Shown here in pieces: positions 6,870 to 36,120 of a stretch of DNA of 64,000 bases (its first letter is position 1; every line of letters begins with the position of its first letter). Source of the DNA: Patescibacteria group bacterium (GTDB lineage: Bacteria > Patescibacteriota > Patescibacteriia > JACRDY01); contig JBAZLA010000001.1 in NCBI GenBank assembly GCA_041650515.1, forward strand, positions 18,710-82,709. The letters are read 5' to 3'. The notes beneath the pieces are model-generated. The model made no database searches and had not been told where the DNA came from. It saw only the letters and a program-made list of their open reading frames with translations. Made by a program: the position numbers and the translations under genes.

Positions 6870-6871
6870 TC

Positions 6872-6899
6872 AAAAAAACCGCCCTTTCTTTGGCGGCTT
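6872..6899 (-). terminator. Rho-independent terminator downstream of ndk
   Basis: On the minus strand: GCCGCC-AAAGAAAG-GGCGGU followed by UUUUUUU. Confidence 0.6.
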
Positions 6900-13743: not shown

Positions 13744-13795
13744 ATTAATTCGCTATAATAATTCTGCTATATTTTTTATAATTTAATATACTAAA

Positions 13796-15916: not shown

Positions 15917-15983
15917 TCCCCGATACCTTACTAACTAAAAAGAGAGCCAATGCTCTCTTTTTTTTGAAAAACCAATCAATTTT

Positions 15984-17637: not shown

Positions 17638-17638
17638 A

Positions 17639-18460
17639 TTAAAATGATATTCTATCTATGTTTCTCTTAAGCGCGGCAATAATGATATAAGACCATAATA
17701 ATATATATAAACGCTTTAACCAACTCAGTGGATCCTTGGCCATTGAGTATTTTTTAATATCCTCTAGTCTAGATCTAATAAATATATTTAACTTTTGGCC
17801 AGAAAATTTGCTAGTAGAATTTTCAAAATAACCAGTAAGAAAAGATAAAATTAACGGATAACGTCTAACTAGAAATAAATTATAAAAAATATTATAAGGA
17901 TACAGATTAAATAAAAATCTAGCTAAATCATAATAAGGAGAATTACGATATTGGAACTCATATATTGACGGATCAAAGATAAAAATTTTATCATTCATAA
18001 AACCAACATTTTTATTGTTTAAATCACCATGGCAATAACACAAATCGTCATTAACTTTTGACTGATTGTGCAAAGCGCTCAAATAGCCACCTAAATTATA
18101 AAAAACATCTTTTATCTTATTCTTATTATTAAAAAAATTAAAATTTTTAAGAAGAAAATTATTAAACTTGGTAAAATTAAAACATTCTTGGATATAGAAT
18201 AATTGATCTTTGTTGATATAAACTAATTTAGGAGTTATAACTAACGATGACTTAATATTATCTAGCCTCCCTAGGCCGGCCAGTTCTCGACTAAACATCT
18301 CGTTGGTTGAAATTGGCTCCAATGGATTACTATTTTCCTTATTGAGAAAAAACTTAGCTAAATAACTGGCGTCACCATCATTAAAATAATAAATGTTGGA
18401 AAAATACCCAGAGTGAACCAACTTACTGGGGAATTCTTTTTCTTGGTAATTAATAATCAT
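17639..18460 (-). CDS. Protein-kinase-like phosphotransferase (APH / choline kinase type)
   Basis: CHGDLNNKNV catalytic loop and DxS motif. The start is taken at the internal Met (METMIINYQ) just after the upstream stop. Confidence 0.6.
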   Translation of the reverse strand: MIINYQEKEFPSKLVHSGYFSNIYYFNDGDASYLAKFFLNKENSNPLEPISTNEMFSRELAGLGRLDNIKSSLVITPKLVYINKDQLFYIQECFNFTKFNNFLLKNFNFFNNKNKIKDVFYNLGGYLSALHNQSKVNDDLCYCHGDLNNKNVGFMNDKIFIFDPSIYEFQYRNSPYYDLARFLFNLYPYNIFYNLFLVRRYPLILSFLTGYFENSTSKFSGQKLNIFIRSRLEDIKKYSMAKDPLSWLKRLYILLWSYIIIAALKRNIDRISF

Positions 18461-18467
18461 TGTCTCT

Positions 18468-19790
18468 TTATTTGATTTCACAAACAGTATACAAATATTT
18501 ACCGCTCGGCGTTGGATCAATCTGATCAACAAAATTCCATTTAGTCCGGCAGTCAGCACCCATAAATAATTTAATTTTTTCTTCAATTCCTCGCATCTGG
18601 CTAGAGTTAGCCTCACCAACTATCTTTAACTCTACTAAATTATATTCTTTCTGGATTAATTGAAATTTTTTGATCCAATCTCTAAAAAATAACTGCTGAA
18701 TGATAAAATGAGTATGTTTTAATCCACCACTTTGAGTCTTAAAATAACCTAGGGTCCTACCAACAACATTATGTAAATTTAAATAAGATTTAGTCCGACT
18801 AAAATTATAATAAACCCCCGGTTGCGCTACGTCGCCCACTTCATATCGGATCAACGGCATCGAAAAATTATCCAAACAAGTAACAACTACTCTGCCCATA
18901 CCATCTCTCAAATCACTAATTTCAACTAGATGACGCCAGAAAAAAACTTGTAAATCAGAGTCGATTTTATCCTGAAAAGCAACTGCCCCTAATTCACGTG
19001 AACCGTACTGATTATAAACTGGACAATTGAAAGCCAGCTCAATTGACGATTTTATCTCCGGGTACAATGGACCAATACTAGTGACAATATATTTAGGAGA
19101 ATATAACTTGATATTATTAGCTGAAACAAATTTAGAAAATTCATATGTCGAGTCAACATAAGTCCAATAACTGACCGGTTTGAAGTTATTATTTAGCTCA
19201 ACTAATTCTTTCATTTTGTCAGAAGAAAAATTATAAGAATTTAAGAACCTCCTATTGTAAAGCCAATTTATGCAACGATCTCTAAGAGCTAAATTACCCT
19301 TGATAATATCCCGATCCGAGCCCCAAAGTTTAATTTCCTTGTCGCCTAAAGATTTACCTAATATTTCATTAAAATGAATCTTGGTAGCAATATTACTCTC
19401 ATCATAATAATGATCCTGTAAAAATTTTACCGGCTCACCAGTCGAACCGCCAGAAGTGTTTTGATAAAATTTTCTCTTTTGGTAGTCATCGGAATATAGA
19501 TTAGCTCCTTCTTGACGGATAATATCCTTAGTCAAAAGCGGTATCTGATTAAAGTTATCCAAATTAACCTGACCATTATCAACTACGCCGCTTTCAGACA
19601 AAATCTTATGGTAATAAGGAACGTGGTTATAGGCGTGAAGTAAAATTTCCTTTAATTTATCTTGCTGGTATTGCTGTTGTTTTGCCCCAGACATTTTTTC
19701 GAAACCATGCAGTAATCTCAAATTGGCCGGAATCTTGCTCCCGCTTAAATAAAACAAAAAGTAAATTATCGGCCTACGCCAGTTAAACAT
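18468..19790 (-). CDS. CapK/PaaK-family adenylate-forming enzyme (phenylacetate-CoA-ligase-like), paralog 1
   Basis: TSGGSTGEPVKF P-loop-like motif and PaaK-like length. Confidence 0.7.
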   Translation of the reverse strand: MFNWRRPIIYFLFYLSGSKIPANLRLLHGFEKMSGAKQQQYQQDKLKEILLHAYNHVPYYHKILSESGVVDNGQVNLDNFNQIPLLTKDIIRQEGANLYSDDYQKRKFYQNTSGGSTGEPVKFLQDHYYDESNIATKIHFNEILGKSLGDKEIKLWGSDRDIIKGNLALRDRCINWLYNRRFLNSYNFSSDKMKELVELNNNFKPVSYWTYVDSTYEFSKFVSANNIKLYSPKYIVTSIGPLYPEIKSSIELAFNCPVYNQYGSRELGAVAFQDKIDSDLQVFFWRHLVEISDLRDGMGRVVVTCLDNFSMPLIRYEVGDVAQPGVYYNFSRTKSYLNLHNVVGRTLGYFKTQSGGLKHTHFIIQQLFFRDWIKKFQLIQKEYNLVELKIVGEANSSQMRGIEEKIKLFMGADCRTKWNFVDQIDPTPSGKYLYTVCEIK

Positions 19791-19801
19791 AAAATAAAAA
19801 T

Positions 19802-21097
19802 TTATTTGACTTCGCTATAAGTGTAAAAATATTTCCCACTCTTTGAAGGGTTAATCTGATCAACAAAATTAAAATCCACACAACAATTCTGGCCAAAAAG
19901 AACTTTAATTTTATCCTTTATATTATCAATATCTTGATTGTTCGGTTCGCTAGCCAATACCACGTTGCAAATAATATAACTGCGATCTTTTTGAATCATT
20001 TGAAACTTTTTGATCCAATCTTTAAACCAAAACTGCCTAACTAAAATCCGAGCATTAATTATTTGCCCGCTCTCTGTTTTGAAATGAGAAATGGTTCGAC
20101 CAGTGACATCATCAAAAACTTTGATTAAATTATGATTATTAAAATGGCTAGCGGTGGGCGGAATAGCCGTATCACCAATTTTATATCTGATAATGGGCAT
20201 AGTAAAATTAACTAATAAAGTTACGACTACCTCGCCATCAATAACTTCTAAATAATGCAACGCTGGAAAGCCGTATAGTCCTTTATTTTGCTCAAGCTCA
20301 ATAGCGACACCGCCAACCTCCATTGAACCATATTGATTATAAACTGGGCAATGAAAAGCTTCTTGTGCTACCTGCCGAATCTCGGGGAAAAGGGTGCCGG
20401 CCGTGGAGATAATGAATTTAGGGGAATAAACTGACAAATTATTTTTTTTAATATAATTGGAAATAACATCTAAAGACTCAGCATAAGCCCACATTGAAAC
20501 CGGCTTAACTTTATTGATTGTCGCAATAAAACTAGCTAATTTTTGGTCGTCATATCTAAAAAAATTGAGAATCGTTCGATTGTAAAGAAAATTGATTATT
20601 CTCTCTTTCCAACTTAAAGAATTACGAAAAATATCGCGTTCCGATCCCCAAATTATTATTTCTGGTTCGCCAATTTTTTTGCCATAAATTTCGTGGTAAA
20701 AAATTTTTAAGGCAATACCCACTAACTCCCAATACTCTTGATCCTGTAAAAATTTTACCGGCTCACCAGTCGAACCGCCAGAAGTGTTTTGATAAAATTT
20801 TCTCTTTTGGTAGTCATCGGAATATAAGTTAGCTCCTTCTTGACGGATAATATCCTTAGTCAAAAGCGGTATCCGATTAAAGTTATCCAAATTAACCTGA
20901 CCATTATCAACTACGCCGCTTTCAGACAAAATCTTATGGTAATAAGGAACGTGGTTATAGGCGTGAAGTAAAATTTCCTCCAGTGCCGATCTTTGATCGA
21001 CCAAAGACATCCGACGCAATCTTTTTAAATTATCTGGAACTTTACTGCCAGTAATATACCAGAGGAAATAAATTATTATCTTACGCCAATTAAACAT
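19802..21097 (-). CDS. CapK/PaaK-family adenylate-forming enzyme, tandem paralog 2
   Basis: Shares a roughly 239-bp block, about 99% identical, with paralog 1 (19451-19689 against 20740-20978). Confidence 0.7.
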   Translation of the reverse strand: MFNWRKIIIYFLWYITGSKVPDNLKRLRRMSLVDQRSALEEILLHAYNHVPYYHKILSESGVVDNGQVNLDNFNRIPLLTKDIIRQEGANLYSDDYQKRKFYQNTSGGSTGEPVKFLQDQEYWELVGIALKIFYHEIYGKKIGEPEIIIWGSERDIFRNSLSWKERIINFLYNRTILNFFRYDDQKLASFIATINKVKPVSMWAYAESLDVISNYIKKNNLSVYSPKFIISTAGTLFPEIRQVAQEAFHCPVYNQYGSMEVGGVAIELEQNKGLYGFPALHYLEVIDGEVVVTLLVNFTMPIIRYKIGDTAIPPTASHFNNHNLIKVFDDVTGRTISHFKTESGQIINARILVRQFWFKDWIKKFQMIQKDRSYIICNVVLASEPNNQDIDNIKDKIKVLFGQNCCVDFNFVDQINPSKSGKYFYTYSEVK

Positions 21098-22211
21098 ATA
21101 ATTCTAGATATCTTTTTGCCACTTCTGGCCAACCAAATTTATTAACTATTGCTAAACTTTTAATAGACATATCCGATCTTTCTACCTCACTATTTTTTAA
21201 ACTTTGCAAAGCTTCAAAAATTGCTTTAGTATCACCTTGCTTTACTATTATACCATTATCTCTAACCAATTCATCTGTGCCACCGGTGTTGGTGACCACC
21301 ACCGGCAAACCTGAGGCCATGGCTTCCAAAAGTGTGTTACTCATTCCCTCATTAACTGAGGGCAAAACATAAACATCGCTTTGACGGTAAATCTCCGGTA
21401 ATTGGTCGTGACTGACGGCGCCAAAAAATTTAACACTTTGATCTTGATCCAAATCAACTACCTGTTTTCTGAGTGTAGCTTCTAAATTACCGCCGCCCAC
21501 AATTAATAACTGACAATCATTTTGCTGATTAAGTTTAGCAAAGGCCTCAATTAAATAATTAACGCCCTTGCGGGCGATTAACCGACCAACGTATAGAATA
21601 GTAAACTTGCTATTTTTGGTTTTAGGAACTGACTGAAACAAACCAACCTCGACACCGTTATAAACCACTTCCATCTTCTGCTTGGGTGCAGTTCTCAAAG
21701 CTAATTCCTTTAAACCCTGAGAGTTAGCCACCACTGCTTTAGCTCTTTGCCAAATCCGACGGCTCAACCACCTAAAAAACAATTTATCCAACCAATAGAA
21801 CCGCGAATTATAAAACGGCACGTCGCTACCACGCAAACTAACGATATAGGGTAAACCCAGCTTCATTGCCAGGTAGCCACTAGGAATACCAAAAAAAGCG
21901 TGGACTAAATCATACTTATTTTCTTCGATTAGCTTTTTACTAAACCAATAAGCTTGCCAAGAATAAGAGAGTAAATTAGCGTTGCTTTGGTAGTGGCGGT
22001 CGCCTTGCTTATTAATATCTAGATAATAAACGGTAATATTATCACTCGGTTTTTCTTCCCGATACTCGGCAATTGACGAAGTGACTAAATCAATTTGTAA
22101 ATCATTCTTCCTGGTAAACTCTTTGAGCAAAAAATAGGTGGCATTAGCCGCGCCACCACCAAGAGGAGGAAACTCATAGTTTAAAATCAAAACCCGCATT
22201 TTATCTTTCAA
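21090..22211 (-). CDS. Glycosyltransferase family 4
   Basis: GT-B fold with an EX7E-type C-terminal motif (EALQSLKNSE... region); glycosyltransferase group 1. Confidence 0.85.
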   Translation of the reverse strand: MKDKMRVLILNYEFPPLGGGAANATYFLLKEFTRKNDLQIDLVTSSIAEYREEKPSDNITVYYLDINKQGDRHYQSNANLLSYSWQAYWFSKKLIEENKYDLVHAFFGIPSGYLAMKLGLPYIVSLRGSDVPFYNSRFYWLDKLFFRWLSRRIWQRAKAVVANSQGLKELALRTAPKQKMEVVYNGVEVGLFQSVPKTKNSKFTILYVGRLIARKGVNYLIEAFAKLNQQNDCQLLIVGGGNLEATLRKQVVDLDQDQSVKFFGAVSHDQLPEIYRQSDVYVLPSVNEGMSNTLLEAMASGLPVVVTNTGGTDELVRDNGIIVKQGDTKAIFEALQSLKNSEVERSDMSIKSLAIVNKFGWPEVAKRYLELYV

Positions 22212-23142
22212 TAATTTCTTTAATACTATAAGTGCGATTATTATTGCGATGATATATCTTAACTGAAATATCCGCTAGGATCCCTGAGACAAACAGCTGA
22301 ATACCGAGTAAAATCATAAAGACGCCAACTAGTGGCCAAATGCGACCAGCCAAACTAATAATACCCAATATTCTGAGAATAAATAAAACCAACAAAATAA
22401 CTACACCAACAAAACTCATAGTTAAACCCAGTCCGCCAAAAAGATGCAATGGCCGATTAGAATATTTGCGCCAGAACCAAACTGACAACATATCCAAAAA
22501 ACCTTTAACCACTCGCCCTAGTTTATATTTAGTCACACCATGAATACGCGGCCGATGGTTAACTTTAATTTCAGCCACCCGATAACCTTGCCATTGTAAA
22601 ATAGCCGGAATAAACCGATGCATCTCACCATAGAGATCAACCTTCTCAAAACACTCGCGACGATAGGCTTTGAGCGTGCAGCCGGAATCGTGAATATGAT
22701 CATTAATCAAAACTTTACGTAAACCGTTGGCCCCTCGCGAACAAAATCTTTTCATTAATGAATCTTTTCGCTGCCAGCGCCAGCCCGAAACCACATCATA
22801 ACCTTCATTAACTTTTTGGAGTAAGAGTGGAATATCCGCCGGATCATTTTGTAAATCACCGTCTAATGTAACAACAATCTCGCCCTGAGCCATCTTAATC
22901 CCCGCGTCCAGCGCCGCCGTTTGACCAAAGTTTTTGCGAAAATTAATAATCTTGACTGGCGATAATTTTTTCATTTCATCCAAGCTCTTATCCGAACTGC
23001 CGTCATTAACAAAAATTATTTCAAACGGTTTGCCCAACTGCTGACAAACAGCCAAAATTTGTCGATGGAGCTCAACTACGTTGCCTTCTTCATTATAAAA
23101 AGGCACCACCACCGAGAGATAAATTTTATCTAAATTATCCAT
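22201..23142 (-). CDS. GT2 polyprenyl-phosphate glycosyltransferase (DPM1/ArnC-like) with a C-terminal TM pair
   Basis: VVVPFYNEE ... VNDGSSD ... LDGDLQND motifs. Confidence 0.85.
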   Translation of the reverse strand: MDNLDKIYLSVVVPFYNEEGNVVELHRQILAVCQQLGKPFEIIFVNDGSSDKSLDEMKKLSPVKIINFRKNFGQTAALDAGIKMAQGEIVVTLDGDLQNDPADIPLLLQKVNEGYDVVSGWRWQRKDSLMKRFCSRGANGLRKVLINDHIHDSGCTLKAYRRECFEKVDLYGEMHRFIPAILQWQGYRVAEIKVNHRPRIHGVTKYKLGRVVKGFLDMLSVWFWRKYSNRPLHLFGGLGLTMSFVGVVILLVLFILRILGIISLAGRIWPLVGVFMILLGIQLFVSGILADISVKIYHRNNNRTYSIKEIIER

Positions 23143-23154
23143 AATTTTGGTATT

Positions 23155-24123
23155 TTACTGCCTATTTATTTTATACCAACTGACAAATTTGTCCATGCCC
23201 TCTTCAATCGTCGTTTTGGGCTGATAACCTAACAATTTCTGGGCCTTTCTAATGTCAGCATAGGTAATATCAACGTCGCCCGGCTGCATTGGATATTGCT
23301 TAATATTAGCCTTTTTACCTAACAAACCCTCAACTATGGCAATAAAATGGCTCAACACCACCGGTTGGTTATTACCCAAATTGATTATCTCGTAACCGAA
23401 ATCTTTATCCAAACAGGCCACCACCCCGCTGACAATATCTTGGATATAGGTATAATCACGCTTAGTATCACCTTGACCAAATCTTTTTACTTCCTGACCC
23501 TGATCAATCCACTGGGTAAAAAGATAGGGCGCCATATCGGGACGACCGCGCTCACCATAGACAGTAAAAAAACGCAGGCCGATACAATTTAAACCAAACA
23601 AATGATGGTAGGTGTGAGCCAAAAGTTCCATGGCTTTTTTGGTCGCCGCGTAAGGTGAAATTGGATTATCAACTGGATCGGTTTCGCTAAAAGGAATTTT
23701 TTTGTTATTGCCATAGACTGATGACGACGAGGCAAAGATAAAATCTTTAATACCATTTTGCCGACACATTTCCAAGAGATTAGCTGTGCCCTCGACATTC
23801 ACTTTTTGATAAAGCAATGGATCGGCAATCGATGGCCGAACACCCGCCCGAGCCGCTAGATGAATAACCTTATCAAACTTATTAGTAAAAACCGATTTTA
23901 AAAAATCTAGGTCAGTAATATCGCCACGAAGCAGATGATGATTACTCTTACCTGAATTAATCGCTACATTTTGCTCCTTAAACGCCGGATTATAATAATC
24001 ATTAAAGTTATCCAAACAAAAAACTTCGTGGCCTTGATTAACCAAATAATCACAAACGTGAGAACCAATGAAACCAGCGCCGCCGGTAACTAAAACACGC
24101 ATATTATTAAATCTAAATGTCAA
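23155..24123 (-). CDS. NAD-dependent sugar-nucleotide epimerase, probably a UDP-glucuronate 4-epimerase
   Basis: GGAGFIGSH Rossmann motif and YxxxK. Sits adjacent to ugd. Confidence 0.8.
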   Translation of the reverse strand: MTFRFNNMRVLVTGGAGFIGSHVCDYLVNQGHEVFCLDNFNDYYNPAFKEQNVAINSGKSNHHLLRGDITDLDFLKSVFTNKFDKVIHLAARAGVRPSIADPLLYQKVNVEGTANLLEMCRQNGIKDFIFASSSSVYGNNKKIPFSETDPVDNPISPYAATKKAMELLAHTYHHLFGLNCIGLRFFTVYGERGRPDMAPYLFTQWIDQGQEVKRFGQGDTKRDYTYIQDIVSGVVACLDKDFGYEIINLGNNQPVVLSHFIAIVEGLLGKKANIKQYPMQPGDVDITYADIRKAQKLLGYQPKTTIEEGMDKFVSWYKINRQ

Positions 24124-24227: not shown

Positions 24228-25514
24228 TTACCTTCCAACACTCAAATATTTAAATCCTAACTTGGCCAATTCCGCCGGATCAAACATATTTCGACCATCA
24301 ATAATCAAGGGGTTTTTTATTAAACTCTTTAACTTCTGCCAATCCGGATTCTTAAACTCGTCCCATTCAGTAATAATTAACAAACAATCAACGTCGGCAG
24401 CGGCAGCGTATTTATCCGAACAGACTTCTACCTTAGGTGACAGATATCTCTGGGCATTAACCGCTGCTTCGGGGTCATAAACTTTAACTTGGGCCTCATT
24501 TTCGATCGCGCGATCAATAATCTCCAGAGCGACTGACTCACGAACATCATCAGTGTTGGGCTTAAATGCTAGCCCCCAAACACCAATTTTTTTGCCCGCT
24601 AAATCGCCAAGTTGATCTTTAATTTTTTGGAACAAAAGCCACTTCTGATTGTTGTTAACTTCAATCACCGCCCGGAGTAATTGGAAGGGATAGCCATGGC
24701 GACCGGCAATCTGATGCAACGCCCGGACGTCTTTAGGGAAACAACTGCCGCCGTAGCCGATACCAGCTTGTAAAAATTTGTGGCCAATCCGACTGTCTAA
24801 GCCCATTCCCTCCGCCACTTTTTCCACATCCGCTCCAACGCTCTCGCAAACATTGGCAATCTCATTAATAAAAGAGATTTTGGTAGCCAAAAAAGCATTA
24901 GAAGCATATTTAATCATCTCCGCGCTCGCTGGCGTGGTAAAAACTTTGGGACAATTAAAATTTTCATAAAGTTTATTCATCAACTCTTCACTCCTTTTTG
25001 AACTACAACCAACAACAATCCGGTCCGGCTGACGAAAATCTTCAATCGCTGAACCCTCGCGCAAAAATTCAGGGTTAGAAACAATATCAAACTCACCAGT
25101 ATAAAATTTGGCAATTTCTTTTCTAACTCGCTGCGCTGTGCCCACCGGCACCGTGCTTTTATCAATTACAACAACGTAATGATCCAAATTTTTACCAATT
25201 GCTTCCGCCGCGGTCATAACTTGGCTTAAATCAGCTTCACCGTTCTCTTTGGGTGGCGTACCCACCGCGATAAAAACTAGCTCGACATCCTTTAAAAAAT
25301 CTTTGAGCGAAGTGGAAAACATCAGCCGACCAGACTCAATATTTCTTTTTAAAATCTCTTCCAAACCCGGCTCAAAAAAAGGCACCTGATTGCTTTGGAG
25401 CTTTTTAATTTTGTTTTCATCAATATCAACGCAAGTCACTTGGTTATCTAGGTCAGCCAAACAAACGCCGGTCACTAAACCGACATAACCAGTACCAATA
25501 ACGACGATTTTCAT
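24228..25514 (-). CDS. ugd: UDP-glucose 6-dehydrogenase
   Basis: Translation MKIVVIGTGYVGLVTGVCLA... with the GGSCFPKD catalytic Cys motif. Confidence 0.9.
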   Translation of the reverse strand: MKIVVIGTGYVGLVTGVCLADLDNQVTCVDIDENKIKKLQSNQVPFFEPGLEEILKRNIESGRLMFSTSLKDFLKDVELVFIAVGTPPKENGEADLSQVMTAAEAIGKNLDHYVVVIDKSTVPVGTAQRVRKEIAKFYTGEFDIVSNPEFLREGSAIEDFRQPDRIVVGCSSKRSEELMNKLYENFNCPKVFTTPASAEMIKYASNAFLATKISFINEIANVCESVGADVEKVAEGMGLDSRIGHKFLQAGIGYGGSCFPKDVRALHQIAGRHGYPFQLLRAVIEVNNNQKWLLFQKIKDQLGDLAGKKIGVWGLAFKPNTDDVRESVALEIIDRAIENEAQVKVYDPEAAVNAQRYLSPKVEVCSDKYAAAADVDCLLIITEWDEFKNPDWQKLKSLIKNPLIIDGRNMFDPAELAKLGFKYLSVGR

Positions 25515-25665
25515 AATTTTAAATAATTAAATCTAAATTCCGACATCCAAACTCGCCAGATACTTATTCTATTTGAGTGCGAATTGATTGATCTTAATGC
25601 CCGGTGACTACGGCTTAATTTTGGCAGTCCTACACTCTGATTCTGATAATGAATCCGCGAATCTG

Positions 25666-25694
25666 TTGACAAATAAATCTTTATCTGTTACTAT
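25666..25694 (+). promoter_or_regulatory. Sigma70-like promoter TTGACA-17-TACTAT driving the small GC-rich gene
   Basis: Consensus -35 element, 17-nt spacer, TACTAT -10 element, then AAGGAGGG SD at 25729-25736. Confidence 0.5.
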
Positions 25695-25740
25695 AAAAAA
25701 TTCTAAATGTCTTTAATTCGTCTAAGATAAGGAGGGCATC

Positions 25741-26019
25741 TTGATACAAGTAGGAAGCACCGTGCGAATAAAGAGTCAGGAGGAGATCCAATCTCTTTGT
25801 GTATGGTCTGACCATTTGCTCTGTGATCCGGATTTGCCTCGGATTGATTTCTGTAGAACTGAGGATATCAGCAGCGGAAGCGTCAAAGCTGAAGGCATGG
25901 AGATTCATTGCGGGAAAACGACAACGATCGCGGCGGAAGACCGGGATGGTGGCTTTCGCTTGGCGATCGATGACAGGCGTCACTGTTGGTCAGCCAAGTG
26001 GCTGGAAGAAGTCGTATAG
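25741..26019 (+). CDS. Hypothetical 92-aa protein on the opposite strand to its neighbours; GC-rich, TTG start, strong SD, own promoter and terminator
   Basis: MIQVGSTVRIKSQEEIQSL... has no family recognised. A self-contained expression unit. Confidence 0.45.
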   Translation: MIQVGSTVRIKSQEEIQSLCVWSDHLLCDPDLPRIDFCRTEDISSGSVKAEGMEIHCGKTTTIAAEDRDGGFRLAIDDRRHCWSAKWLEEVV

Positions 26020-26047
26020 CCTCGCACTCGATGCTCACAACGCCCTT

Positions 26048-26078
26048 GCCTAGATGGAAACGTCTAGGCAATTTTTTA
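26048..26078 (+). terminator. Rho-independent terminator of the 92-aa gene
   Basis: gcctagatggaaacgtctaggc followed by aatttttt. Confidence 0.65.
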
Positions 26079-26109
26079 AATTTTAAAATGCAATAATATC
26101 TAATAAATA

Positions 26110-27369
26110 TTATGTACCGATTTCCCAACTCGTCAAATACTTCCGCTGCGCTGGTGTTAATTTATCAATATTAATCTTCATTGAAGCGAGTTTCATTCTG
26201 GCTACTTTATATTCTAATTCTGTCGGTAGATAGTGAACTTTATCACCCAATTTGCCATGGTTTTTAACAACATATTCCGAAGCTAACGCTTGAGTGGCAA
26301 AACTCATATCCATGACACAAGCCGGATGGCCTTCAGCCGCCGCTAGATTAATTAACCGACCTTCGGCTAACAAATTGATTTTATGGCCATTGCGCAAAGT
26401 GTATTCATCAACAAAGTTACGGACATTTTTACGAACTTTGACCGCCATTTTCTTAAGCGCCGGAATATCAATTTCCACATCAAAATGACCAGAATTGCAA
26501 ACTATCGCCCCGTCTTTCATTATTTTAAAATGCTCCCGACGAAGAACCGCAACATCACCGGTCAGGGTGCAAAACAGATCGCCTATCTTCGCCGCCCGAC
26601 TCATCGACATCACTTCAAAACCATCCATCGCCGCTTCAATGGCTTTAATTTCATCCACCTCAGTGACAATTACTTTGGCGCCCATCCCCCGCGCTCGCGA
26701 GGCAAAGCCGCGGCCGCACCAACCATAACCCGACACCACAACGTACTTGCCAGCCAATAGAATATCAGTCGCCCGGATAATACCATCAACAGTTGATTGG
26801 CCGGTGCCATAGCGATTATCAAACAGATTTTTGGTTTTAGCATCATTAACGGCAATTACTGGCAAAAGCAACCTACCCGCTCGCTCCATCGCTTTTAATC
26901 TGATAACCCCAGTCGTCGTTTCTTCCATACTGCCCAAGATATTCTTGGCCCAATCTCTATAGCCAGAATGCAAAAGCGAAATTAAATCCGCGCCATCATC
27001 CATTGTTACTACTGGCCGATGAACCAAAGCAGCTTTTAAATTTTGATAATAGCTAGCGCGATTTTCACCACAAACCGCAAAAGTGGGAATCTTATATTCT
27101 TTAACCAAGGCCGCTGCGACATCATCTTGGGTGGATAAGGGGTTAGAAGCACAAAGTAAAATATCAGCGCCGCCGGCTTTGAGTGTGCGGACTAAATTAG
27201 CCGTCTCGGCGGTGACATGTAGACAAGCTGACATCCTCTTACCTCGGAGCGGTTTAGTCCGAGAAAAACTGTCTCTAATCTGTTGCAAAACCGGCATATC
27301 GTGGTTGGCCCACTCGATGCGTTTTTTACCAACGCTGGCTAATTTTAAATCTTTGACATGGTACTTCAT
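26110..27369 (-). CDS. ahcY: Adenosylhomocysteinase
   Basis: Full-length SAH-hydrolase signature with an NAD-binding GYGWCGRG motif. Confidence 0.95.
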   Translation of the reverse strand: MKYHVKDLKLASVGKKRIEWANHDMPVLQQIRDSFSRTKPLRGKRMSACLHVTAETANLVRTLKAGGADILLCASNPLSTQDDVAAALVKEYKIPTFAVCGENRASYYQNLKAALVHRPVVTMDDGADLISLLHSGYRDWAKNILGSMEETTTGVIRLKAMERAGRLLLPVIAVNDAKTKNLFDNRYGTGQSTVDGIIRATDILLAGKYVVVSGYGWCGRGFASRARGMGAKVIVTEVDEIKAIEAAMDGFEVMSMSRAAKIGDLFCTLTGDVAVLRREHFKIMKDGAIVCNSGHFDVEIDIPALKKMAVKVRKNVRNFVDEYTLRNGHKINLLAEGRLINLAAAEGHPACVMDMSFATQALASEYVVKNHGKLGDKVHYLPTELEYKVARMKLASMKINIDKLTPAQRKYLTSWEIGT

Positions 27370-28484: not shown

Positions 28485-29186
28485 CTATTTAATTAACCCC
28501 TGCTTTCTCAAATATATTTCCGCCCGTTTTAAGTCATCCGGATAGCCGATGGGCAACCAATAATCAGTTTGGACGATTTTAACTGGATAACCATTAACCA
28601 TTTTAACGACTGTTTGTGGCAAGCCAAATTCTTTACCATCCTTAATCGGCGCTAAACTGTATTTAAAAACATTCTCATCCAAAACATAAAGGGCAGAATT
28701 AACTAGGCACTTAGTCCCAGGCATAAGTTCGGTTTCAACAATATCAATCAAATTACCAGCCTCATTAATCATCAAGGCGCCATAATTACGCAATTCTTCC
28801 GCCACAACTTCTTTAGCTAAGATACAGCGCTCTTGCGCTAAACATCGAACGACATCTTTGGCTTGATAAATATCATCCCCCATCAAAACTAAAAAGCGGC
28901 CCTTCAGTAATCCCCGACAACGCCATAGAGCATCGCCGGTACCTAATAATTCTGGCTGAATAACATAACTAATCTGGCGACCATCATATTCATTACCAAA
29001 ATATTTTTTGAGCTGCTCACCCAAATAACCCACCACCAAAATTACTTCATCAATTTCTTTAGGTAATTGCTCAATACTGTAGGCTAACAATGGCTTGCCT
29101 TGCACCGGCAGCATTGGTTTGGGTACTTCGTAAGTTAGGGGCCGCATTCGTACACCGGCACCAGCGGCTAGAATCACTGCTTGCAT
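28485..29186 (-). CDS. Sugar-phosphate nucleotidyltransferase (NTP_transferase family)
   Basis: MQAVILAAGAGVRMRPLT...KPML motif. Confidence 0.85.
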   Translation of the reverse strand: MQAVILAAGAGVRMRPLTYEVPKPMLPVQGKPLLAYSIEQLPKEIDEVILVVGYLGEQLKKYFGNEYDGRQISYVIQPELLGTGDALWRCRGLLKGRFLVLMGDDIYQAKDVVRCLAQERCILAKEVVAEELRNYGALMINEAGNLIDIVETELMPGTKCLVNSALYVLDENVFKYSLAPIKDGKEFGLPQTVVKMVNGYPVKIVQTDYWLPIGYPDDLKRAEIYLRKQGLIK

Positions 29187-32100
29187 TATTTTACTACTAT
29201 ATTAATCAACCGCCCGGGAACAAAAATCACTTTAACTATTTCTTTACCAGTTAAATAACTTTTTACTTTTGTATCCACTAAGACTAACTCTTTAGCCTCG
29301 GTTTCGCTAATATCCGCTTTGACTTGAATATTGGTTCGCATTTTGCCGTTAATCTGGATCACCAAAGTGATTTCTTCTTCCTTAACTAACTCCGGATCAT
29401 ACTTGGGCCAGCTCTGGCAAAAAATACTTTTTTGGTGACCAAGCGTTTGCCACAACTCTTCGGCTAAGTGGGGCGAAAACGGTGCCAAAATTTTTAAAAA
29501 CAATTCCAAATTTTCCTGACTGACTTCTTTGGCTTCTTGAAAACCATTGACCAAAATCATCATGGCCGAAATCGCGGTATTATAGCGCATGTTTTCAATA
29601 TCCTCAGTAACTTTTTTGATTGTTTGATGAACTAATTTGTCGCCTTGTACCTTGCTACTTGTTACTTTTTCTTGAAGCAACCAAACTTTATCCAAAAACC
29701 GCCGCACACCATTAATCCCTTTGGTACTCCAGGGCTTGGTGTCTTCAAGCGGCCCCATAAACATTTCATAGAGTCGCATGCTGTCCGCGCCAAAATCGCG
29801 AACCACATCATCGGGGTTAATCACATTACCACGCGATTTGGACATTTTTTGGCCGTCTTCGCCCAAGATCATGCCTTGGTTGCGAAGTTTGAGAAACGGT
29901 TCAGCAAAATTAATATAACCCAGATCATACAAAACTTTGGTAAAAAACCGCGCATACATCAAATGCAGTACCGCATGTTCCGCTCCGCCAACATAGAGAT
30001 CAACTGGTAGCCATTTATTAATTTCTTTCTGGCTAGCAAACTCTTTTTTGTTCTCTGGATCAGTGTAACGGAAATAATACCAAGATGAACAAACAAAAGT
30101 ATCCATAGTATCGGATTCGCGTTTGGCGGGAGCACCACAAACCGGACATTTAACATTGTGAAATTTTTTAGAATTGACCAACGGCGACTCACCAGTTGGT
30201 TTAAAATCAACATCATCTGGCAATAAAACTGGTAAATCTTTCTCTGGCACCGGGACTAAACCCGAATTAGAGCCTAAAGAAAATTCTTCTAAAATTTCTG
30301 GGAAAGACAACATTCCCACCCGGCGATTAGAATGACCACGGTTATTAAATATTCTCACCCGGGCGCCCAAAGGCTGATAATCTTTTTCGACCGCTAACGG
30401 AATATAAGGATCGTTGTCTGAAAGATAAATAACAATTTCTTTGGCTAGTTTTTTTACTCGGACTAAATCAATTTTAGCTTGATTAAAATGCTTGGCCGCC
30501 TCAATACTATTCACCTCGGCACCGGCCGTTCGCATATTGCTCCAATTCTCCTCACTCTGAGACGGACCGGTCGGCGCGACTAAAATTAATTTTTCTATTG
30601 GTAAACCAGTTACCTGAATATATTGGCAAACAGCCGGGGCGCTCAGGCTGTGAGCGACGATAAAAATTTTATCTTCTTTTTTAAAATTGAGACTCTGCAG
30701 CGCCGCCACCCACTCGGCAATTGTCGGCACGCTAGCATTAGGCAAAATTGGAATTAAAACTTCATAGCCGCTATTTTCTAGTTGCTCTTTGAGCCAAGGA
30801 AACCAATTATCGTTAGCGTGAGCATTAAGACCGTGGGTTAATAAAACCTTAGGTTTTTTCTGAGCACAATGATCACAATAAATCATCGGGATGGGCGCGC
30901 CCCAATAGCGCTGGCGCGATACCAGCCAATCGCGAAGTTTGTACTGCGTTTTTAACTGACCACCGACTTTTTGCGTAATTTTTTTCTTGGCTTCTTCACT
31001 GGTTAAACCATCAAACTCGCCGGAATTAATCATGGTGCCAGTGCCAACCCAACACTTATAAGCTAAATCGCTACTTAAATGGCCATAAGCGCCCGGGCTG
31101 GCCATGCCAGATTCTATCGGACTGGCTGCCATTAAACTTTCTGGTTTAATCACTTCAATTATCGGCAAACTAAATTTTTTGGCGAACTCATAGTCTCGTT
31201 CATCGTGCGCCGGCACCGCCATGATTGCTCCAGTGCCATAGCCAGTCAAGACATAATCAGCCACAAAAATCGGTATTTCTTTATTGGTTGCCGGATTGAT
31301 GGCTCTAATACCCTTTAATTCCACACCGGTCTTGGCTTTAGCTAAATCGGTTCTTTCGATTTCATTCTTCTTTTGGGCCAACTTAATGTATTGCTCAACT
31401 TCTTCCCAATTTTTAATTGCCAATTTTAAATTATTAATCAAACCATGCTCTGGCGCCAGCACCATATAAGTTACGCCAAAAAGTGTATCCGGCCGCGTGG
31501 TAAAAACTTTAATTTTTACTGGTTCGCGAACCGCGGACAGCGAACCGCGGACAGCGAATTCTAACTCTGCTCCCTCACTCCGGCCGATCCAATTTTTTTG
31601 CATCAGCTTAATCGGCTCGGGCCAATCAATTGTATCCAAATCATTGAGCAGTCTATCAGCATACTGAGTCACTTTAAAAAACCACTGCTCTAGGTCTTTT
31701 TGCACCACTTCGTTGTGACAACGTTCGCATTGACCGGCGACCACCTGCTCATTAGCTAGTACTGTCTGACAAGAATTACACCAATTAACTTTGGCTTTCT
31801 TTTTGTAAGCTAAACCGTTTTTATAGAGCAACAAAAAAAACCACTGCGTCCATTTGTAATATGCTGGATCAGAAGTTTTAATTTCGCGTGACCAGTCATA
31901 ACTCAGGCCCAGCGACTGGATCTGGCGTCGAAAAGTTTCAACACTTTTGTCAGTCGTTATCTGTGGATGAACTTTTTGCTTGATGGCAAAATTTTCCGCT
32001 GGTAGGCCAAAAGCATCCCAACCCATCGGGTGTAAGACATCATAACCATTGAGTCGCAGATAACGGGAATAAATATCCGTCGCGGTGTAACCCTCAGGAT

Positions 32101-32251
32101 GACCAACGTGTAAACCAGCGGCTGACGGATAAGGAAACATATCCAAAATATATTTTTTCTTTTGGGGACTCTTGGGCGCTTGGTTAATTTTCTCCTTAGC
32201 CCAATATTTCTGCCACTTGGCTTCTATCTCTTGATGAATATACTTATCCAT
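29186..32251 (-). CDS. leuS: Leucyl-tRNA synthetase carrying an inserted alpha/beta-hydrolase domain (YdeN/RBBP9 family, about 210 aa) in the zinc-knuckle region
   Basis: HVGH (HIGH) motif, TTRPDT editing motif, KMSKS motif. The insert VLLTHGLNAHANDNWFPWL...IVAHSLSAPA...LVAPTGP lies between CDHC and VPVPEKDLPVLLP. Confidence 0.95.
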   Translation of the reverse strand: MDKYIHQEIEAKWQKYWAKEKINQAPKSPQKKKYILDMFPYPSAAGLHVGHPEGYTATDIYSRYLRLNGYDVLHPMGWDAFGLPAENFAIKQKVHPQITTDKSVETFRRQIQSLGLSYDWSREIKTSDPAYYKWTQWFFLLLYKNGLAYKKKAKVNWCNSCQTVLANEQVVAGQCERCHNEVVQKDLEQWFFKVTQYADRLLNDLDTIDWPEPIKLMQKNWIGRSEGAELEFAVRGSLSAVREPVKIKVFTTRPDTLFGVTYMVLAPEHGLINNLKLAIKNWEEVEQYIKLAQKKNEIERTDLAKAKTGVELKGIRAINPATNKEIPIFVADYVLTGYGTGAIMAVPAHDERDYEFAKKFSLPIIEVIKPESLMAASPIESGMASPGAYGHLSSDLAYKCWVGTGTMINSGEFDGLTSEEAKKKITQKVGGQLKTQYKLRDWLVSRQRYWGAPIPMIYCDHCAQKKPKVLLTHGLNAHANDNWFPWLKEQLENSGYEVLIPILPNASVPTIAEWVAALQSLNFKKEDKIFIVAHSLSAPAVCQYIQVTGLPIEKLILVAPTGPSQSEENWSNMRTAGAEVNSIEAAKHFNQAKIDLVRVKKLAKEIVIYLSDNDPYIPLAVEKDYQPLGARVRIFNNRGHSNRRVGMLSFPEILEEFSLGSNSGLVPVPEKDLPVLLPDDVDFKPTGESPLVNSKKFHNVKCPVCGAPAKRESDTMDTFVCSSWYYFRYTDPENKKEFASQKEINKWLPVDLYVGGAEHAVLHLMYARFFTKVLYDLGYINFAEPFLKLRNQGMILGEDGQKMSKSRGNVINPDDVVRDFGADSMRLYEMFMGPLEDTKPWSTKGINGVRRFLDKVWLLQEKVTSSKVQGDKLVHQTIKKVTEDIENMRYNTAISAMMILVNGFQEAKEVSQENLELFLKILAPFSPHLAEELWQTLGHQKSIFCQSWPKYDPELVKEEEITLVIQINGKMRTNIQVKADISETEAKELVLVDTKVKSYLTGKEIVKVIFVPGRLINIVVK

Positions 32252-33302: not shown

Positions 33303-33845
33303 TTATTCGGCTTTTTTGCTCAGGGTGATCCTCTTACACCCCTTGATGGCCGTGAGCCGATGGCGGCGTGGGATGGTCTTGGTGACCTTGTTTAGGACAG
33401 CCTCAAACTGCCCGGTGTCCCTGCCAACGCAACGGATAAAGGCCAGGTCATGATTCGCGACGAGTGTTCCAGCATCAACATCCAACACTGCCGCGAAAGT
33501 CAACACCGCCTCAAGCGGTATATCCTGCCAATCAGTAGATTCTCTCTCAATTGGAGAATCAGCTTCAAATTCCTCGGTGATGGTGGCGATCAAATCACCT
33601 CGAAGCACTGCCCAAAAAACAAAACCATCACCCAGTTTAGCTTCGATGCCAGCGTCGTCGAGAAGACGACAAAAATTTTCCACCTCTCGGAAGGTCAAAC
33701 TGCCGTACTTGTAACCCACTGACTTCACCGACGGCAAACCTTCCTGATCAGCCAAAAAGGCTAAAATCCTACGGCCGTGAGCTTTTGCCACTCTCGCCAG
33801 CTCTTCCAAATCCGCCAAACGGTAGTCTCTCCGATACTCTCTCAT
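33303..33845 (-). CDS. Hypothetical 180-aa protein; GC-rich, strong SD (AAAGGAGGA), own terminator
   Basis: Composition is clearly different from its neighbours. No family recognised. Confidence 0.45.
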   Translation of the reverse strand: MREYRRDYRLADLEELARVAKAHGRRILAFLADQEGLPSVKSVGYKYGSLTFREVENFCRLLDDAGIEAKLGDGFVFWAVLRGDLIATITEEFEADSPIERESTDWQDIPLEAVLTFAAVLDVDAGTLVANHDLAFIRCVGRDTGQFEAVLNKVTKTIPRRHRLTAIKGCKRITLSKKAE

Positions 33846-35634: not shown

Positions 35635-36120
35635 ATACAAAGTTTAGAAAATTTTAATATTGAATATTTTATACTAGTTTTATTAACTAATTAGCAAATA
35701 CAACTTTATGATGATTAAATCATACAAAGACCTACTCGTCTGGCAGGTAGGAATTGAGCTAGTAATAGCTACCTATGAGCTAACAGAGCAATTCCCGAAA
35801 AAAGAACAATTTGGACTAACCTCGCAGATTAGAAGAGCCTCAATCTCTATCCCATCTAATGTCGCCGAGGGTTATCAACGTAAAACTGATGGGGAACTTT
35901 TACGTTTCTTATTGATTGCTCTCGGTTCGGCCTCTGAACTAGAAACTCAACTTTTTTTAGCCAAAAAATTGAAAATGACATCCGAGGAATACTTTCTAAG
36001 AATAGATAATTTGTTAACACGAGTACTCCAGCTTACCAACTCTTTTATCAATAAACTACGCAAGGATACCGGGCGAACAGCGAACCGCGGCCAGCGAACC
36101 GCGGCCAGCGAACCGCAACA
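35595..36120. mobile_element. Inverted-repeat cassette carrying four-helix-bundle gene 2; left arm (GCGGTTC)x3-4, right arm (CAGCGAACCGCGGC)x3
   Basis: The flanks are reverse-complementary heptamer arrays. The cargo gene is antisense to both neighbours. Confidence 0.65.

What the first reader, a model, noticed from the sequence alone, without database searches (positions are those of the whole stretch)
25560..26105. Self-contained foreign-looking expression unit: consensus promoter, SD, TTG-start 92-aa ORF and terminator, antisense to the glycan and ahcY operons
TTGACA-17-TACTAT, AAGGAGGG, a 92-aa ORF and a strong hairpin with T-run terminator are packed into about 450 bp. The unit is GC-richer than its flanks, on the opposite strand to every neighbour. 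The unit fits small accessory genes such as a toxin or antitoxin, an anti-defence gene or a phage moron.
Basis: seen in the sequence. Interest (0 to 1): 0.6.

Follow-up and report, generated by a model that had tools for sequence, protein, structure and literature searches.

The report
Inserted small SH3-like orphan gene cassette
A real, self-contained 92-codon gene of unknown function sits in a candidate-phyla-radiation (CPR) bacterial genome as an inserted block of about 470 bp, with a decayed copy of the neighbouring gene's end on its far side, and it encodes a very rare small protein with a probable SH3-like fold.

Summary
The + strand carries a TTGACA-17-TGnTACTAT promoter, an AAGGAGGG ribosome-binding site, a TTG-start 92-aa ORF (25741-26019) and a strong hairpin plus T6 terminator. 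All of it lies in the 595-bp gap between ugd and ahcY, which are both on the - strand.

The ORF is a real gene. Its only relatives among billions of proteins are a tandem gene pair in a Candidatus Kerfeldbacteria genome (29-34% identity over the full length).

Profile comparison and a moderate-confidence model suggest an SH3-like barrel. It is distantly like Mind-bomb SH3 repeats (PF18346) and small phage proteins, but it falls below Pfam's threshold.

The unit does look foreign:
- It is GC-richer than the genome.
- Its synonymous codon usage is in the lowest 1.6% of native windows.
- It has a strong Shine-Dalgarno (SD) site in a genome where only 4 of 48 genes have one.

The new finding is a decayed copy of the last ~105 nt of ahcY at 25533-25640, ending 18 nt before the ugd start codon. 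The cassette therefore lies between the working ahcY end and a displaced one, like e14 in E. coli icd, although no integrase remains.

No evidence supports a toxin, antitoxin or anti-defence role. Interest is moderate to low.

The parts
25666..25694 (+). Sigma-70-type promoter: -35 TTGACA (25666-25671), 17-nt spacer, extended -10 TGtTACTAT (25686-25694)
   Evidence: scores it 10 of 12 with TG. One search shows it is one of only 5 TTGACA-N16-18-TANNNT sites in the window. It is a consensus match only; there are no transcript data.
25729..25736 (+). Shine-Dalgarno sequence AAGGAGGG, with 4 nt (25737-25740) between it and the start codon
   Evidence: Sequence. One search finds AAGGAGG only 5 times in 128 kb. 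Three of these sit just upstream of the starts of GC-rich orphan ORFs, and only 4 of 48 long ORFs have an SD core of 5 nt or more.
25741..26019 (+). Coding sequence of the 92-aa protein (TTG start, TAG stop). It is acidic (pI 4.9) and soluble, with no signal peptide or membrane segment evident.
   Evidence: One search lists the ORF. Gene callers of three sources called the same ORF. Homologues P0002 and P0004 align from residue 1 to the end. One search gives pI and hydropathy.
26046..26077 (+). Intrinsic terminator: 11-bp stem, GAAA loop, T6 tail. It works for the + strand only.
   Evidence: One search gives -17.6 kcal/mol and z = -5.6. On the - strand it is -12.5 kcal/mol with no T run.
25533..25640 (-). 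Decayed duplicate of the last ~105 nt of ahcY, with two in-frame stops. It ends in TAG at 25535-25533, 18 nt upstream of the ugd ATG.
   Evidence: nhmmer with profiles of ahcY 3' ends from 79 other genomes gives E 2.1e-5 and 1.3e-5, ungapped and in register. In-register identity to the 79 ends is 0.50, against 0.257 +/- 0.031 for random windows. An independent pairwise scan finds the same coordinates. One search gives the blastn hit to L008.
26110..26214 (-). Functional 3' end of ahcY, the counterpart of the relic. Together they form a diverged direct repeat flanking the cassette.
   Evidence: 58% identity to the relic over 105 nt and 73% over the last 33 nt.
25641..26109 (.). The inserted block (about 470 bp) between the two ahcY ends. 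It contains only the promoter, SD, ORF and terminator.
   Evidence: Inferred from the boundary of the relic (alignment reaches 25636, envelope 25647) and the ahcY stop codon at 26110.
24228..25514 (-). ugd (UDP-glucose 6-dehydrogenase), first gene of the glycan-synthesis cluster. It is given for context and is divergent from the cassette.
   Evidence: Pfam UDPG_MGDP_dh domains.
26110..27369 (-). ahcY (S-adenosylhomocysteine hydrolase), given for context. It is convergent with the cassette.

Best explanation
The unit is a genuine single-gene cassette with its own transcription signals. It was inserted by recombination at the 3' end of ahcY, in a Patescibacteria (CPR) genome where ahcY once ran directly into ugd (stop codon, 18 nt, start codon).

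The insertion left a working ahcY end on one side and the displaced, now decayed end on the other. This is the arrangement seen where prophage e14 or phage 21 sits in the E. coli icd gene. Here only a moron-like cargo gene remains and there is no integrase.

The gene encodes a 92-aa acidic cytoplasmic protein. It belongs to a tiny family known only from CPR bacteria (three proteins). The family probably folds as an SH3-like beta-barrel and is distantly related to Mind-bomb SH3 repeats and to small phage proteins.

By inference only, it acts as a small protein- or peptide-binding accessory factor rather than an enzyme. It is dispensable for the flanking pathways.

What is shown and what is inferred:
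- Shown: the sequence signals, coding status, family membership, composition bias and the ahcY relic.
- Inferred with moderate support: the fold.
- Inferred weakly: a mobile-element origin and a binding function.
For: Expression signals.

Coding status:
- An exhaustive phmmer search of 1.84 billion representatives finds P0002 over its full length (E 3.5e-4).
- P0002's tandem neighbour P0004 is a third member.
- The three proteins are 29-34% identical to each other.
- 16 columns are invariant, including G5, C20, C57, G58, W83, W87 and L88.

Fold:
- hhalign of the family against 9 SH3_15 repeats gives probability 85% and E 5.8e-6 over the full length.
- The family HMM hits 7 SH3_15 repeats in one register.
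- The AlphaFold2 model from 3 sequences has pLDDT 68 and pTM 0.60, and shows one helix plus beta-strands.
- Foldseek hits are almost all SH3-like. The best TM-score is 0.53, to MIB1 MZM-REP 4xi6. Phage proteins annotated 'Mind bomb SH3 repeat' come up with probability about 1.0.
- All three family members hit phrog_7488 weakly at the same profile positions.

Foreignness:
- GC 0.505 against a genome mean of 0.416.
- Synonymous codon score in the lowest 1.6% of native 91-codon windows.
- Strong SD in an SD-poor genome.
- The Kerfeldbacteria homologues show the same GC and SD contrast with their neighbours.

Insertion scar.

Variable site: relatives carry metK, a PD-(D/E)XK gene, a zeta toxin gene or unknown small ORFs directly after ahcY, and never this ORF.

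Analogy with e14, icd and the icdC pseudogene: PMC13626634.
Against: - The cassette contains no integrase, no transposase and no identical att core.
- The two ahcY ends are only 58% identical. The event is therefore old, or the two ends come from different lineages. In that case the persistent atypical composition needs explaining.
- The GC excess is only about 1.8 SD.
- The Kerfeldbacteria homologues are co-directional with their neighbours and show no flanking scar.
- None of the three family proteins reaches Pfam's SH3_15 threshold.
- The model has only moderate confidence, and no Foldseek match reaches E 0.01.
- There are no expression data and no conserved gene neighbourhood, so the proposed function rests on fold analogy alone.
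- All three available copies of the locus are 100% identical, so selection cannot be measured.
Confidence: 0.6

Rival explanations
1. The cassette was already resident at the end of the ahcY operon, and the glycan island is the newcomer. In this view a donor fragment starting inside a donor's ahcY 3' end, followed by ugd and the glycan genes, was inserted downstream of the cassette. The relic would then mark the island's edge rather than the cassette's insertion.
For: The glycan cluster is lower in GC than the rest of the window (0.28-0.40 for genes at 12196-24123), as is usual for exchanged polysaccharide loci. No relative has ahcY followed by ugd. Relatives carry assorted small accessory genes directly after ahcY, one of them on the opposite strand (L009). 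The relic is no closer to the resident ahcY end (0.58) than to that of L008 (0.60).
Against: This does not explain the cassette's own atypical codon usage and SD. It needs an illegitimate join exactly at the cassette's edge. ugd itself has ordinary composition (GC 0.424).
Confidence: 0.25
2. The product is a toxin, an antitoxin or an anti-defence protein.
For: It is small and acidic (pI 4.9; 4.1 for P0002). It has its own promoter and terminator. It resembles small phage proteins of unknown function at fold level. The site after ahcY holds a zeta toxin gene in one relative (L004).
Against: There is no adjacent partner gene. There is no hit in PADLOC, Pfam or NCBIfam. No defence or phage genes lie within 9 kb. 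There is no homologue in 50,697 phage genomes or 2.9 million viral contigs.
Confidence: 0.1
3. The main role is at the RNA or transcription level. Convergent transcription from the cassette, together with its hairpin, would insulate the ugd glycan operon from ahcY read-through or regulate it by antisense. The ORF would be secondary.
For: ahcY has no - strand terminator with a T run. A promoter-like site at 26136-26109 on the - strand would send transcripts antisense through the ORF towards ugd. The unit is the only + strand gene in about 20 kb.
Against: The protein sequence is conserved in Kerfeldbacteria, where the genes are co-directional with their neighbours. There is no Rfam match. The leader is not unusually structured (z = -0.2).
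Confidence: 0.08
4. The ORF is spurious or newly arisen from non-coding spacer and is not a conserved gene.
For: Its codon usage is atypical, and about as poor as that of the antisense 100-aa ORF. There is no hit in any family library.
Against: Full-length homologues exist in a different CPR lineage. The start positions align, and Gly, Cys and Trp positions are invariant. tblastn of those homologues hits only this frame of the window.
Confidence: 0.03

Closest known systems
Mind bomb SH3 repeat domain (Pfam PF18346, SH3_15), the REP repeats of MIB1 and repeats of plant KEG; also small phage proteins carrying that annotation
   Same: The length and order of elements match: an N-terminal strand (V-G-x-x-V-x-I), a short helix, M-x-x-x-G-K-x-G/T-x-I, then a beta-hairpin ending in a conserved Trp. 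hhalign gives probability 85% over the full length. The family HMM hits 7 repeats in register. The model's best TM-score is to MIB1 4xi6, and it also matches 60-70-aa phage proteins annotated SH3_15. In MIB1 these repeats are substrate-recognition modules (PMC11701565).
   Different: The proteins fall below Pfam's gathering score (no hit for the window protein; 12.2 bits against a cut-off of 24 for P0002). The H-G-G-x-N loop is replaced by a variable insert of 15-30 residues. The invariant Gln of the nine repeats used for comparison and the Leu before G-K are both Cys here. W-N-P becomes W-x-x-x-W-L. The protein is a single stand-alone bacterial domain, not a repeat inside a eukaryotic E3 ligase or kinase.
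Integration of prophage e14 or phage 21 into the 3' end of E. coli icd, which leaves the icdC pseudogene
   Same: A functional gene end lies on one side of the inserted DNA. A displaced, non-functional copy of the same C-terminal coding segment lies on the other side, in direct orientation and next to the original downstream DNA (PMC13626634).
   Different: The insert is only about 470 bp and holds one cargo gene. It has no integrase or excisionase, and no identical core sequence can be recognised. The two ends are 58% identical and the relic carries stop codons, so the event is old or the ends are heterologous.
Phage morons (independent promoter-ORF-terminator units inserted between genes; from my own knowledge of the term as used for lambdoid phages)
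   Same: A single ORF has its own promoter and intrinsic terminator. Its composition differs from the flanks, and it is inserted between two genes that were once adjacent.
   Different: It lies in a bacterial chromosome between housekeeping and glycan genes, not inside a recognisable prophage. No phage homologue was found by sequence.
Hypothetical proteins PIY96060.1 and PIY96061.1 of Candidatus Kerfeldbacteria bacterium CG_4_10_14_0_8_um_filter
   Same: They are the only true family members: 29-34% identity over the full length, with the same invariant residues. They are also GC-richer and SD-led among SD-less neighbours, and are followed by a strong terminator.
   Different: They are 77 aa and lack the insert at residues 26-40. 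They occur as a tandem pair, co-directional with neighbours between an amino-acid-kinase-family gene and rplJ, with no flanking relic.

Membership tests
Pfam PF18346 SH3_15 (Mind bomb SH3 repeat) | Score at or above the Pfam gathering threshold (24 bits) | tested here: not met
   The window protein has no hit even at E <= 10. P0002 scores 12.2 bits, E 0.23. P0004 has no hit.
Pfam PF18346 SH3_15 (Mind bomb SH3 repeat) | Full-length profile-to-profile similarity to bona fide repeats | tested here: met
   hhalign of A3 against 9 repeats of P0003 gives probability 85.4%, E 5.8e-6 and 62 aligned columns spanning both profiles. The family HMM hits 7 repeats at profile positions 45-85, 28.6 bits in total. 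This is moderate support only.
Pfam PF18346 SH3_15 (Mind bomb SH3 repeat) | SH3-like beta-barrel fold | tested here: inconclusive
   The model has pLDDT 68 and pTM 0.60 from a 3-sequence alignment. Foldseek hits are nearly all SH3-like, but the best E-values are 0.2 against PDB and 0.014 against BFVD. TM-score to 4xi6 is 0.53.
Pfam PF18346 SH3_15 (Mind bomb SH3 repeat) | Signature residues: Gln in the helix, the H-G-G-x-N loop, and W-N-P at the end | tested here: not met
   In the alignments, Gln is Cys, the H-G-G loop is replaced by a variable insert, and W-N-P becomes W-[AS]-x-x-W-L.
Gene-3'-end-targeting integrative element (e14 or phage 21 at icd type) | Functional gene end and displaced pseudo-end as direct repeats flanking the insert | tested here: met
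   nhmmer hits only 26195-26111 (E 3e-14) and 25618-25535 (E 2e-5), same strand and in register.
Gene-3'-end-targeting integrative element (e14 or phage 21 at icd type) | Integrase or recombinase gene inside the insert | tested here: not met
   The insert is about 470 bp and holds only the 92-aa ORF. No recombinase appears among the called genes within 10 kb.
Gene-3'-end-targeting integrative element (e14 or phage 21 at icd type) | Identical att core at both junctions | tested here: not met
   No exact repeat longer than about 10 nt links the two junctions. The ends are 58-73% identical. Decay could have erased a core.
Phage moron | Own promoter and terminator around a single ORF, with composition unlike the flanks | tested here: met
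   (consensus-level signals; no transcript data).
Phage moron | Located within a phage or prophage genome | tested here: not met
   The flanking genes are ahcY, pfkB, a nucleotidyltransferase (NTP_transferase) gene and leuS on one side, and ugd, an epimerase and glycosyltransferases on the other. There are no viral homologues.
Type II toxin-antitoxin module | Two adjacent co-transcribed small genes, one of them related to a known toxin or antitoxin family | tested here: not met
   The unit holds a single ORF. There is no Pfam, NCBIfam or PADLOC hit.
Known anti-phage defence or anti-defence proteins | Match to a PADLOC model, or location in a defence island | tested here: not met
   No PADLOC hit. 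The neighbours are metabolic and glycan genes. Anti-defence families were not searched specifically.

The most novel reading that the evidence does not exclude
The cassette would be a minimal mobile (or CPR-phage-derived) gene unit. Its product, a stand-alone bacterial relative of the eukaryotic Mind-bomb SH3 repeat, would bind and modulate a specific host or phage protein. It would also be one example of a wider class seen in this window: GC-rich, codon-atypical orphan genes that carry strong SDs in a genome whose native genes start translation without one. That would imply two translation-initiation regimes in a single CPR cell.
Probability: 0.12. Interest if true: 0.6.

Novelty: new member of a known kind. 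Interest (0 to 1): 0.35.

Why it matters
The result itself is modest. It shows that a small orphan gene in an uncultivated CPR bacterium is real. It also shows that the gene belongs to a previously unrecognised family of three proteins with a probable SH3-like fold, and that it sits at a recombination scar where one ahcY end was displaced and a functional end retained.

It could matter in three ways:
1. It gives a dated footprint of gene gain in a streamlined CPR genome, where such events are rarely visible.
2. It suggests that Mind-bomb-type SH3 repeats have stand-alone bacterial and phage relatives.
3. The contrast between SD-led, GC-rich orphan genes and SD-less native genes offers a simple marker for acquired genes in these lineages. 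It also raises the question of how those genes are translated.

Tried and rejected
- **RNA element.** Rfam gave no credible hit at E <= 10 on 25000-26700, and only the tRNA at gathering score on the whole window. The window has one tRNA, far away. The leader fold is not unusual.
- **Antisense 100-aa ORF (25681-25983, - strand).** It has no homologues. The family's tblastn hits fall only in the + frame. Rejected.
- **Family libraries.** Pfam, NCBIfam and PADLOC gave nothing. PHROGs gave only a weak phrog_7488 hit of unknown function.
- **Word-indexed protein searches.** Three searches found only the protein itself and the Kerfeldbacteria pair.
- **Viral and phage collections.** Viral contigs and phage genomes gave nothing or noise at E about 8.
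- **PDB sequence search.** The only hit was Trm5 (MJ0883), E 0.79, treated as chance.
- **Structure prediction.** Single-sequence AlphaFold2 was useless (pLDDT 33).
- **Selection test across strains.** Not possible, because the three copies of the locus are 100% identical.
- **Short AT-rich direct repeat D1 (25507-25523 and 26071-26087).** Judged to be chance in low-complexity sequence.
- **Similar relics next to other genes.** Only the ahcY relic and the tandem CapK paralogues stand out. The Kerfeldbacteria locus has no flanking relic.
- **Viral relatives of the three other GC-rich orphans.** None found.
- **DNA-binding regulator of the divergent ugd operon.** Rejected as unlikely. The protein is acidic, and its homologues are not next to glycan genes.
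- **Literature on SD usage in Patescibacteria.** Nothing relevant found.

Full report
**1. Observation**

The window region 25515-26109 is a 595-bp gap between ugd (24228-25514, - strand) and ahcY (26110-27369, - strand). The + strand carries these elements in order:

| Element | Coordinates |
|---|---|
| -35 box TTGACA | 25666-25671 |
| Spacer | 17 nt |
| Extended -10, TGtTACTAT | 25686-25694 |
| SD, AAGGAGGG | 25729-25736 |
| TTG start | 25741 |
| TAG stop | 26017-26019 |
| 11-bp hairpin | 26046-26071 |
| T6 run | follows the hairpin |

The hairpin folds at -17.6 kcal/mol (z = -5.6). It is weaker on the other strand and has no T run there, so it terminates the + strand gene and not ahcY.

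Promoter-like sites as a class are not enriched locally: 8 were found against 6.0 +/- 2.5 expected. The strict pattern TTGACA-N16-18-TANNNT occurs only five times in the whole window.

**2. Organism**

The best relatives of AhcY and of the adjacent PfkB-family kinase are Patescibacteria (CPR) genomes: an unnamed Patescibacteria group bacterium at 77%, then Buchananbacteria, Falkowbacteria and others.

The same locus is found, 100% identical, in an ENA assembly and in a Logan assembly. These copies carry no information on selection.

**3. It is a real gene**

Word-indexed searches of 5.8 billion protein clusters found only the protein itself.

An exhaustive phmmer search of 1.84 billion representatives found two further hits:
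- P0002, 77 aa, aligned over its full length (E 3.5e-4).
- P0003, a eukaryotic kinase with many repeats (E 6.9e-4).

P0002 lies in a Candidatus Kerfeldbacteria contig, immediately followed by a paralogue, P0004 (NCBI PIY96060.1 and PIY96061.1, both annotated 'hypothetical').

The three proteins are 29-34% identical to one another. Their N-termini align, which confirms the TTG start. Sixteen columns are invariant, including G5, V8, E15, I16, C20, M53, C57, G58, T61, G71, R73, D77, W83, W87 and L88.

tblastn of the Kerfeldbacteria proteins against the window hits only this frame. The antisense 100-aa ORF and a non-coding reading are therefore rejected.

An HMM of the family finds no further member in about 0.89 Mb of related loci, in JGI metagenome contigs beyond the same Kerfeldbacteria organism, or in IMG/VR.

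**4. Fold and remote relationship**

P0003 contains nine Pfam SH3_15 (PF18346, Mind bomb SH3 repeat) domains, and P0002 touches the same model weakly (12.2 bits). The evidence for a distant relationship is:

- Profile-profile comparison of the family with nine of those repeats gives probability 85% and E 5.8e-6 over the full length.
- The family HMM hits seven repeats in one register.
- The single-sequence AlphaFold2 model was useless (pLDDT 33). With the three-sequence alignment the model reaches pLDDT 68 and pTM 0.60. It has a first strand, a helix at 13-22, a disordered insert at 21-36 and five to six further strands.
- Foldseek against PDB gives no significant match, but the list is dominated by SH3-like domains: the SH3b domain of NlpC/P60 proteins, classical SH3, Tudor, the ferredoxin-thioredoxin reductase variable chain and PetP. 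The highest query TM-score (0.53) is to MIB1 MZM-REP, 4xi6.
- Against BFVD, the top matches are 50-100-aa phage proteins, several annotated 'Mind bomb SH3 repeat domain'. Probability is about 1.0, but E is only 0.014-0.08.
- All three family members hit phrog_7488 (unknown function) at the same profile positions, with E 0.31, 0.028 and 0.007.

The family does not reach Pfam's threshold and lacks the H-G-G-x-N and W-N-P signatures. I therefore treat it as a new sequence family within the SH3-like superfamily and not as a member of PF18346. In MIB1 these repeats recognise substrates (PMC11701565).

The proteins are acidic (pI 4.1-6.2) and hydrophilic. This argues against DNA binding or membrane insertion.

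**5. Foreign-looking features**

- **GC content.** GC is 0.505 and GC3 is 0.538, against 0.416 +/- 0.050 and 0.398 +/- 0.076 for 48 long ORFs.
- **Codon usage.** Scored against the genome's own preferences, synonymous codon usage falls in the lowest 1.6% of 1,302 native 91-codon windows.
- **SD usage.** The genome is SD-poor. Only 4 of 48 long ORFs have an SD core of 5 nt or more. Genes with unambiguous starts (ahcY, ugd, leuS) are preceded by AT-rich runs. AAGGAGG occurs five times in 128 kb. Three of those occurrences sit just upstream of the starts of GC-rich, codon-atypical orphan ORFs: this one, 6292-6606 and 33303-33845.
- **Same contrast in Kerfeldbacteria.** P0002 has GC 0.504 with GAGGTGGA upstream, and P0004 has GGGAGA upstream. 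Their SD-less neighbours have GC 0.41-0.45. The pair is also followed by a terminator with a 17-bp stem.

**6. The insertion scar (new)**

A blastn of the spacer against the related loci gave an unexpected hit. Window 25515-25573 matched the 3' end of ahcY in L008.

*Profile searches.* A nucleotide profile of the last 90 nt of ahcY from 79 other genomes hits only two places in the 64-kb window:
- the real ahcY end, 26195-26111 (E 3e-14);
- 25618-25535 on the same strand (E 2.1e-5), ungapped and in register.

A 360-nt profile extends the second hit to 25636-25534 but no further.

*Translation.* The relic reads ...AKIKP\*SPGIKINQFALK\*NKYLASLDVGI\*. The real end reads ...ARMKLASMKINIDKLTPAQRKYLTSWEIGT\*.

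*Statistics.* The relic's in-register identity to the 79 ends averages 0.50. Random windows give 0.257 +/- 0.031, with a maximum of 0.381 in 2,000 trials. A blind pairwise scan of every gene end in the window against its downstream 2 kb recovers exactly the same coordinates (0.589). Apart from the tandem CapK paralogues, it is the only outlier.

*Interpretation.* The relic's stop codon (25535-25533) lies 18 nt before the ugd ATG. ahcY was therefore once followed directly by ugd. The block of about 470 bp between the real ahcY stop and the relic (about 25641-26109) contains only the promoter, SD, ORF and terminator.

This arrangement matches that of prophage e14 in E. coli, where icd extends into the prophage and an icdC C-terminal pseudogene lies at the far end (PMC13626634). 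Here there is no integrase and no recognisable att core. The two ends are only 58% identical (73% over the last 33 nt), so the event is old or the ends are heterologous.

An alternative reading cannot be excluded with the data at hand. In it, the glycan island brought the ahcY fragment with it and was joined next to a cassette that was already there.

**7. Synteny**

The pfkB-ahcY pair is conserved across CPR relatives. What follows ahcY varies:
- metK in many relatives;
- a small variable gene and then comEC in the closest ones (a PD-(D/E)XK_3 gene in L008; unknown ORFs of 126-138 aa in L003 and L009, on the opposite strand in L009);
- a zeta-toxin gene in L004.

None has ugd or this ORF. The position after ahcY is therefore a variable spot that collects accessory genes.

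**8. Mechanism**

- **Shown:** a gene with consensus signals for independent expression, a conserved protein, atypical composition, and location between a functional and a displaced ahcY end.
- **Inferred with moderate support:** an SH3-like barrel.
- **Inferred weakly:** the protein acts by binding a partner protein or peptide, as SH3-like modules do, and it came in with a mobile element or phage of which nothing else remains.

The invariant pair C20/C57 replaces Gln and Leu of the SH3_15 repeats. It might form a disulfide or a metal site, but this is untested.

A secondary consequence is possible. The cassette now separates ugd from ahcY transcription, and a TAGAAT hexamer (25571-25566, - strand) inside the relic could serve as a new -10 for ugd. 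This is speculation.

**9. Comparison and novelty**

The unit works like a moron, but it is not in a prophage. The scar resembles e14 in icd, but there is no recombinase. The fold resembles SH3_15, but the family fails the Pfam test. There is no support for a toxin-antitoxin, defence or anti-defence assignment.

It is best filed as a new member of known kinds: an acquired orphan accessory gene, and a small SH3-like protein. Interest is moderate to low. The most useful by-products are the insertion scar and the link between SD use and atypical composition among this genome's orphan genes.

Noticed in passing
window-wide; examples at 24228-25514, 26110-27369, 29186-32251: The genome is SD-poor. 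Only 4 of 48 long ORFs have an SD core of 5 nt or more upstream, and most start codons follow AT-rich runs. AAGGAGG occurs only 5 times in 128 kb.
   Followed up: partly
window 6292-6606 (-), 33303-33845 (-), 42235-43089 (-): Three more GC-rich (0.56, 0.52, 0.60), SD-led, codon-atypical orphan ORFs with no credible Pfam, PHROG or viral-contig match. Pfam was run only on the last two. 42235-43089 has GC3 0.775. Together with the 92-aa gene they form a class of foreign-looking genes. None has a flanking gene-end relic.
   Followed up: partly
window 29186-32251 (-): The leucyl-tRNA synthetase (1021 aa) carries an inserted PF06821 Ser_hydrolase (alpha/beta hydrolase) domain between its synthetase halves, according to precomputed Pfam hits.
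   Followed up: no
window about 6868-7084 (-): Possible unannotated small RNA. A near-consensus promoter TTGACA-16-TGtTACAAT (7084-7057) and a terminator (6899-6876) bracket about 180 nt. This stretch folds at -57.8 kcal/mol (z = -4.2) and has no Rfam match. It lies upstream of tRNA-Thr (6687-6758).
   Followed up: partly
window 12196-24123: The glycan-synthesis cluster is lower in GC than the rest of the window (0.28-0.40 against about 0.42-0.45). It contains tandem CapK-like paralogues (18468-19790 and 19802-21097) whose ends still match each other at about 65%. It may itself be an exchanged island.
   Followed up: no
L004 7316-8020; L008 7413-7853; L009 4024-4404; L003 7338-7783: In related CPR genomes the slot immediately after ahcY holds different accessory genes: a zeta toxin, a PD-(D/E)XK_3 nuclease, and unknown small ORFs (one antisense). 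Many others have metK there.
   Followed up: partly
window 56849-56877: Near-perfect hairpin CCCCTCCTT-GGA-AAGGAGGGG between two - strand genes. It accounts for two of the five AAGGAGG occurrences.
   Followed up: no
window 35708-36133 (+): This is the only other + strand gene called by the source annotation between about 16 and 40 kb. It encodes a 141-aa protein of the 23S_rRNA_IVP family (PF05635) and overlaps the start of the aminotransferase gene by 11 nt.
   Followed up: no
L084 6001-6486 (Candidatus Kerfeldbacteria): The only homologues form a tandem pair of 77-aa genes between an amino-acid-kinase-family gene and rplJ. They are followed by a terminator with a 17-bp stem and then an 11-of-12 promoter for rplJ. 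One strain variant differs by a Pro-to-Thr change in P0002.
   Followed up: partly
window 26136-26109 (-): A promoter-like site TTGACG-16-CATAAT overlaps the ahcY stop codon. If active, it would send - strand transcripts antisense through the 92-aa gene towards ugd.
   Followed up: no
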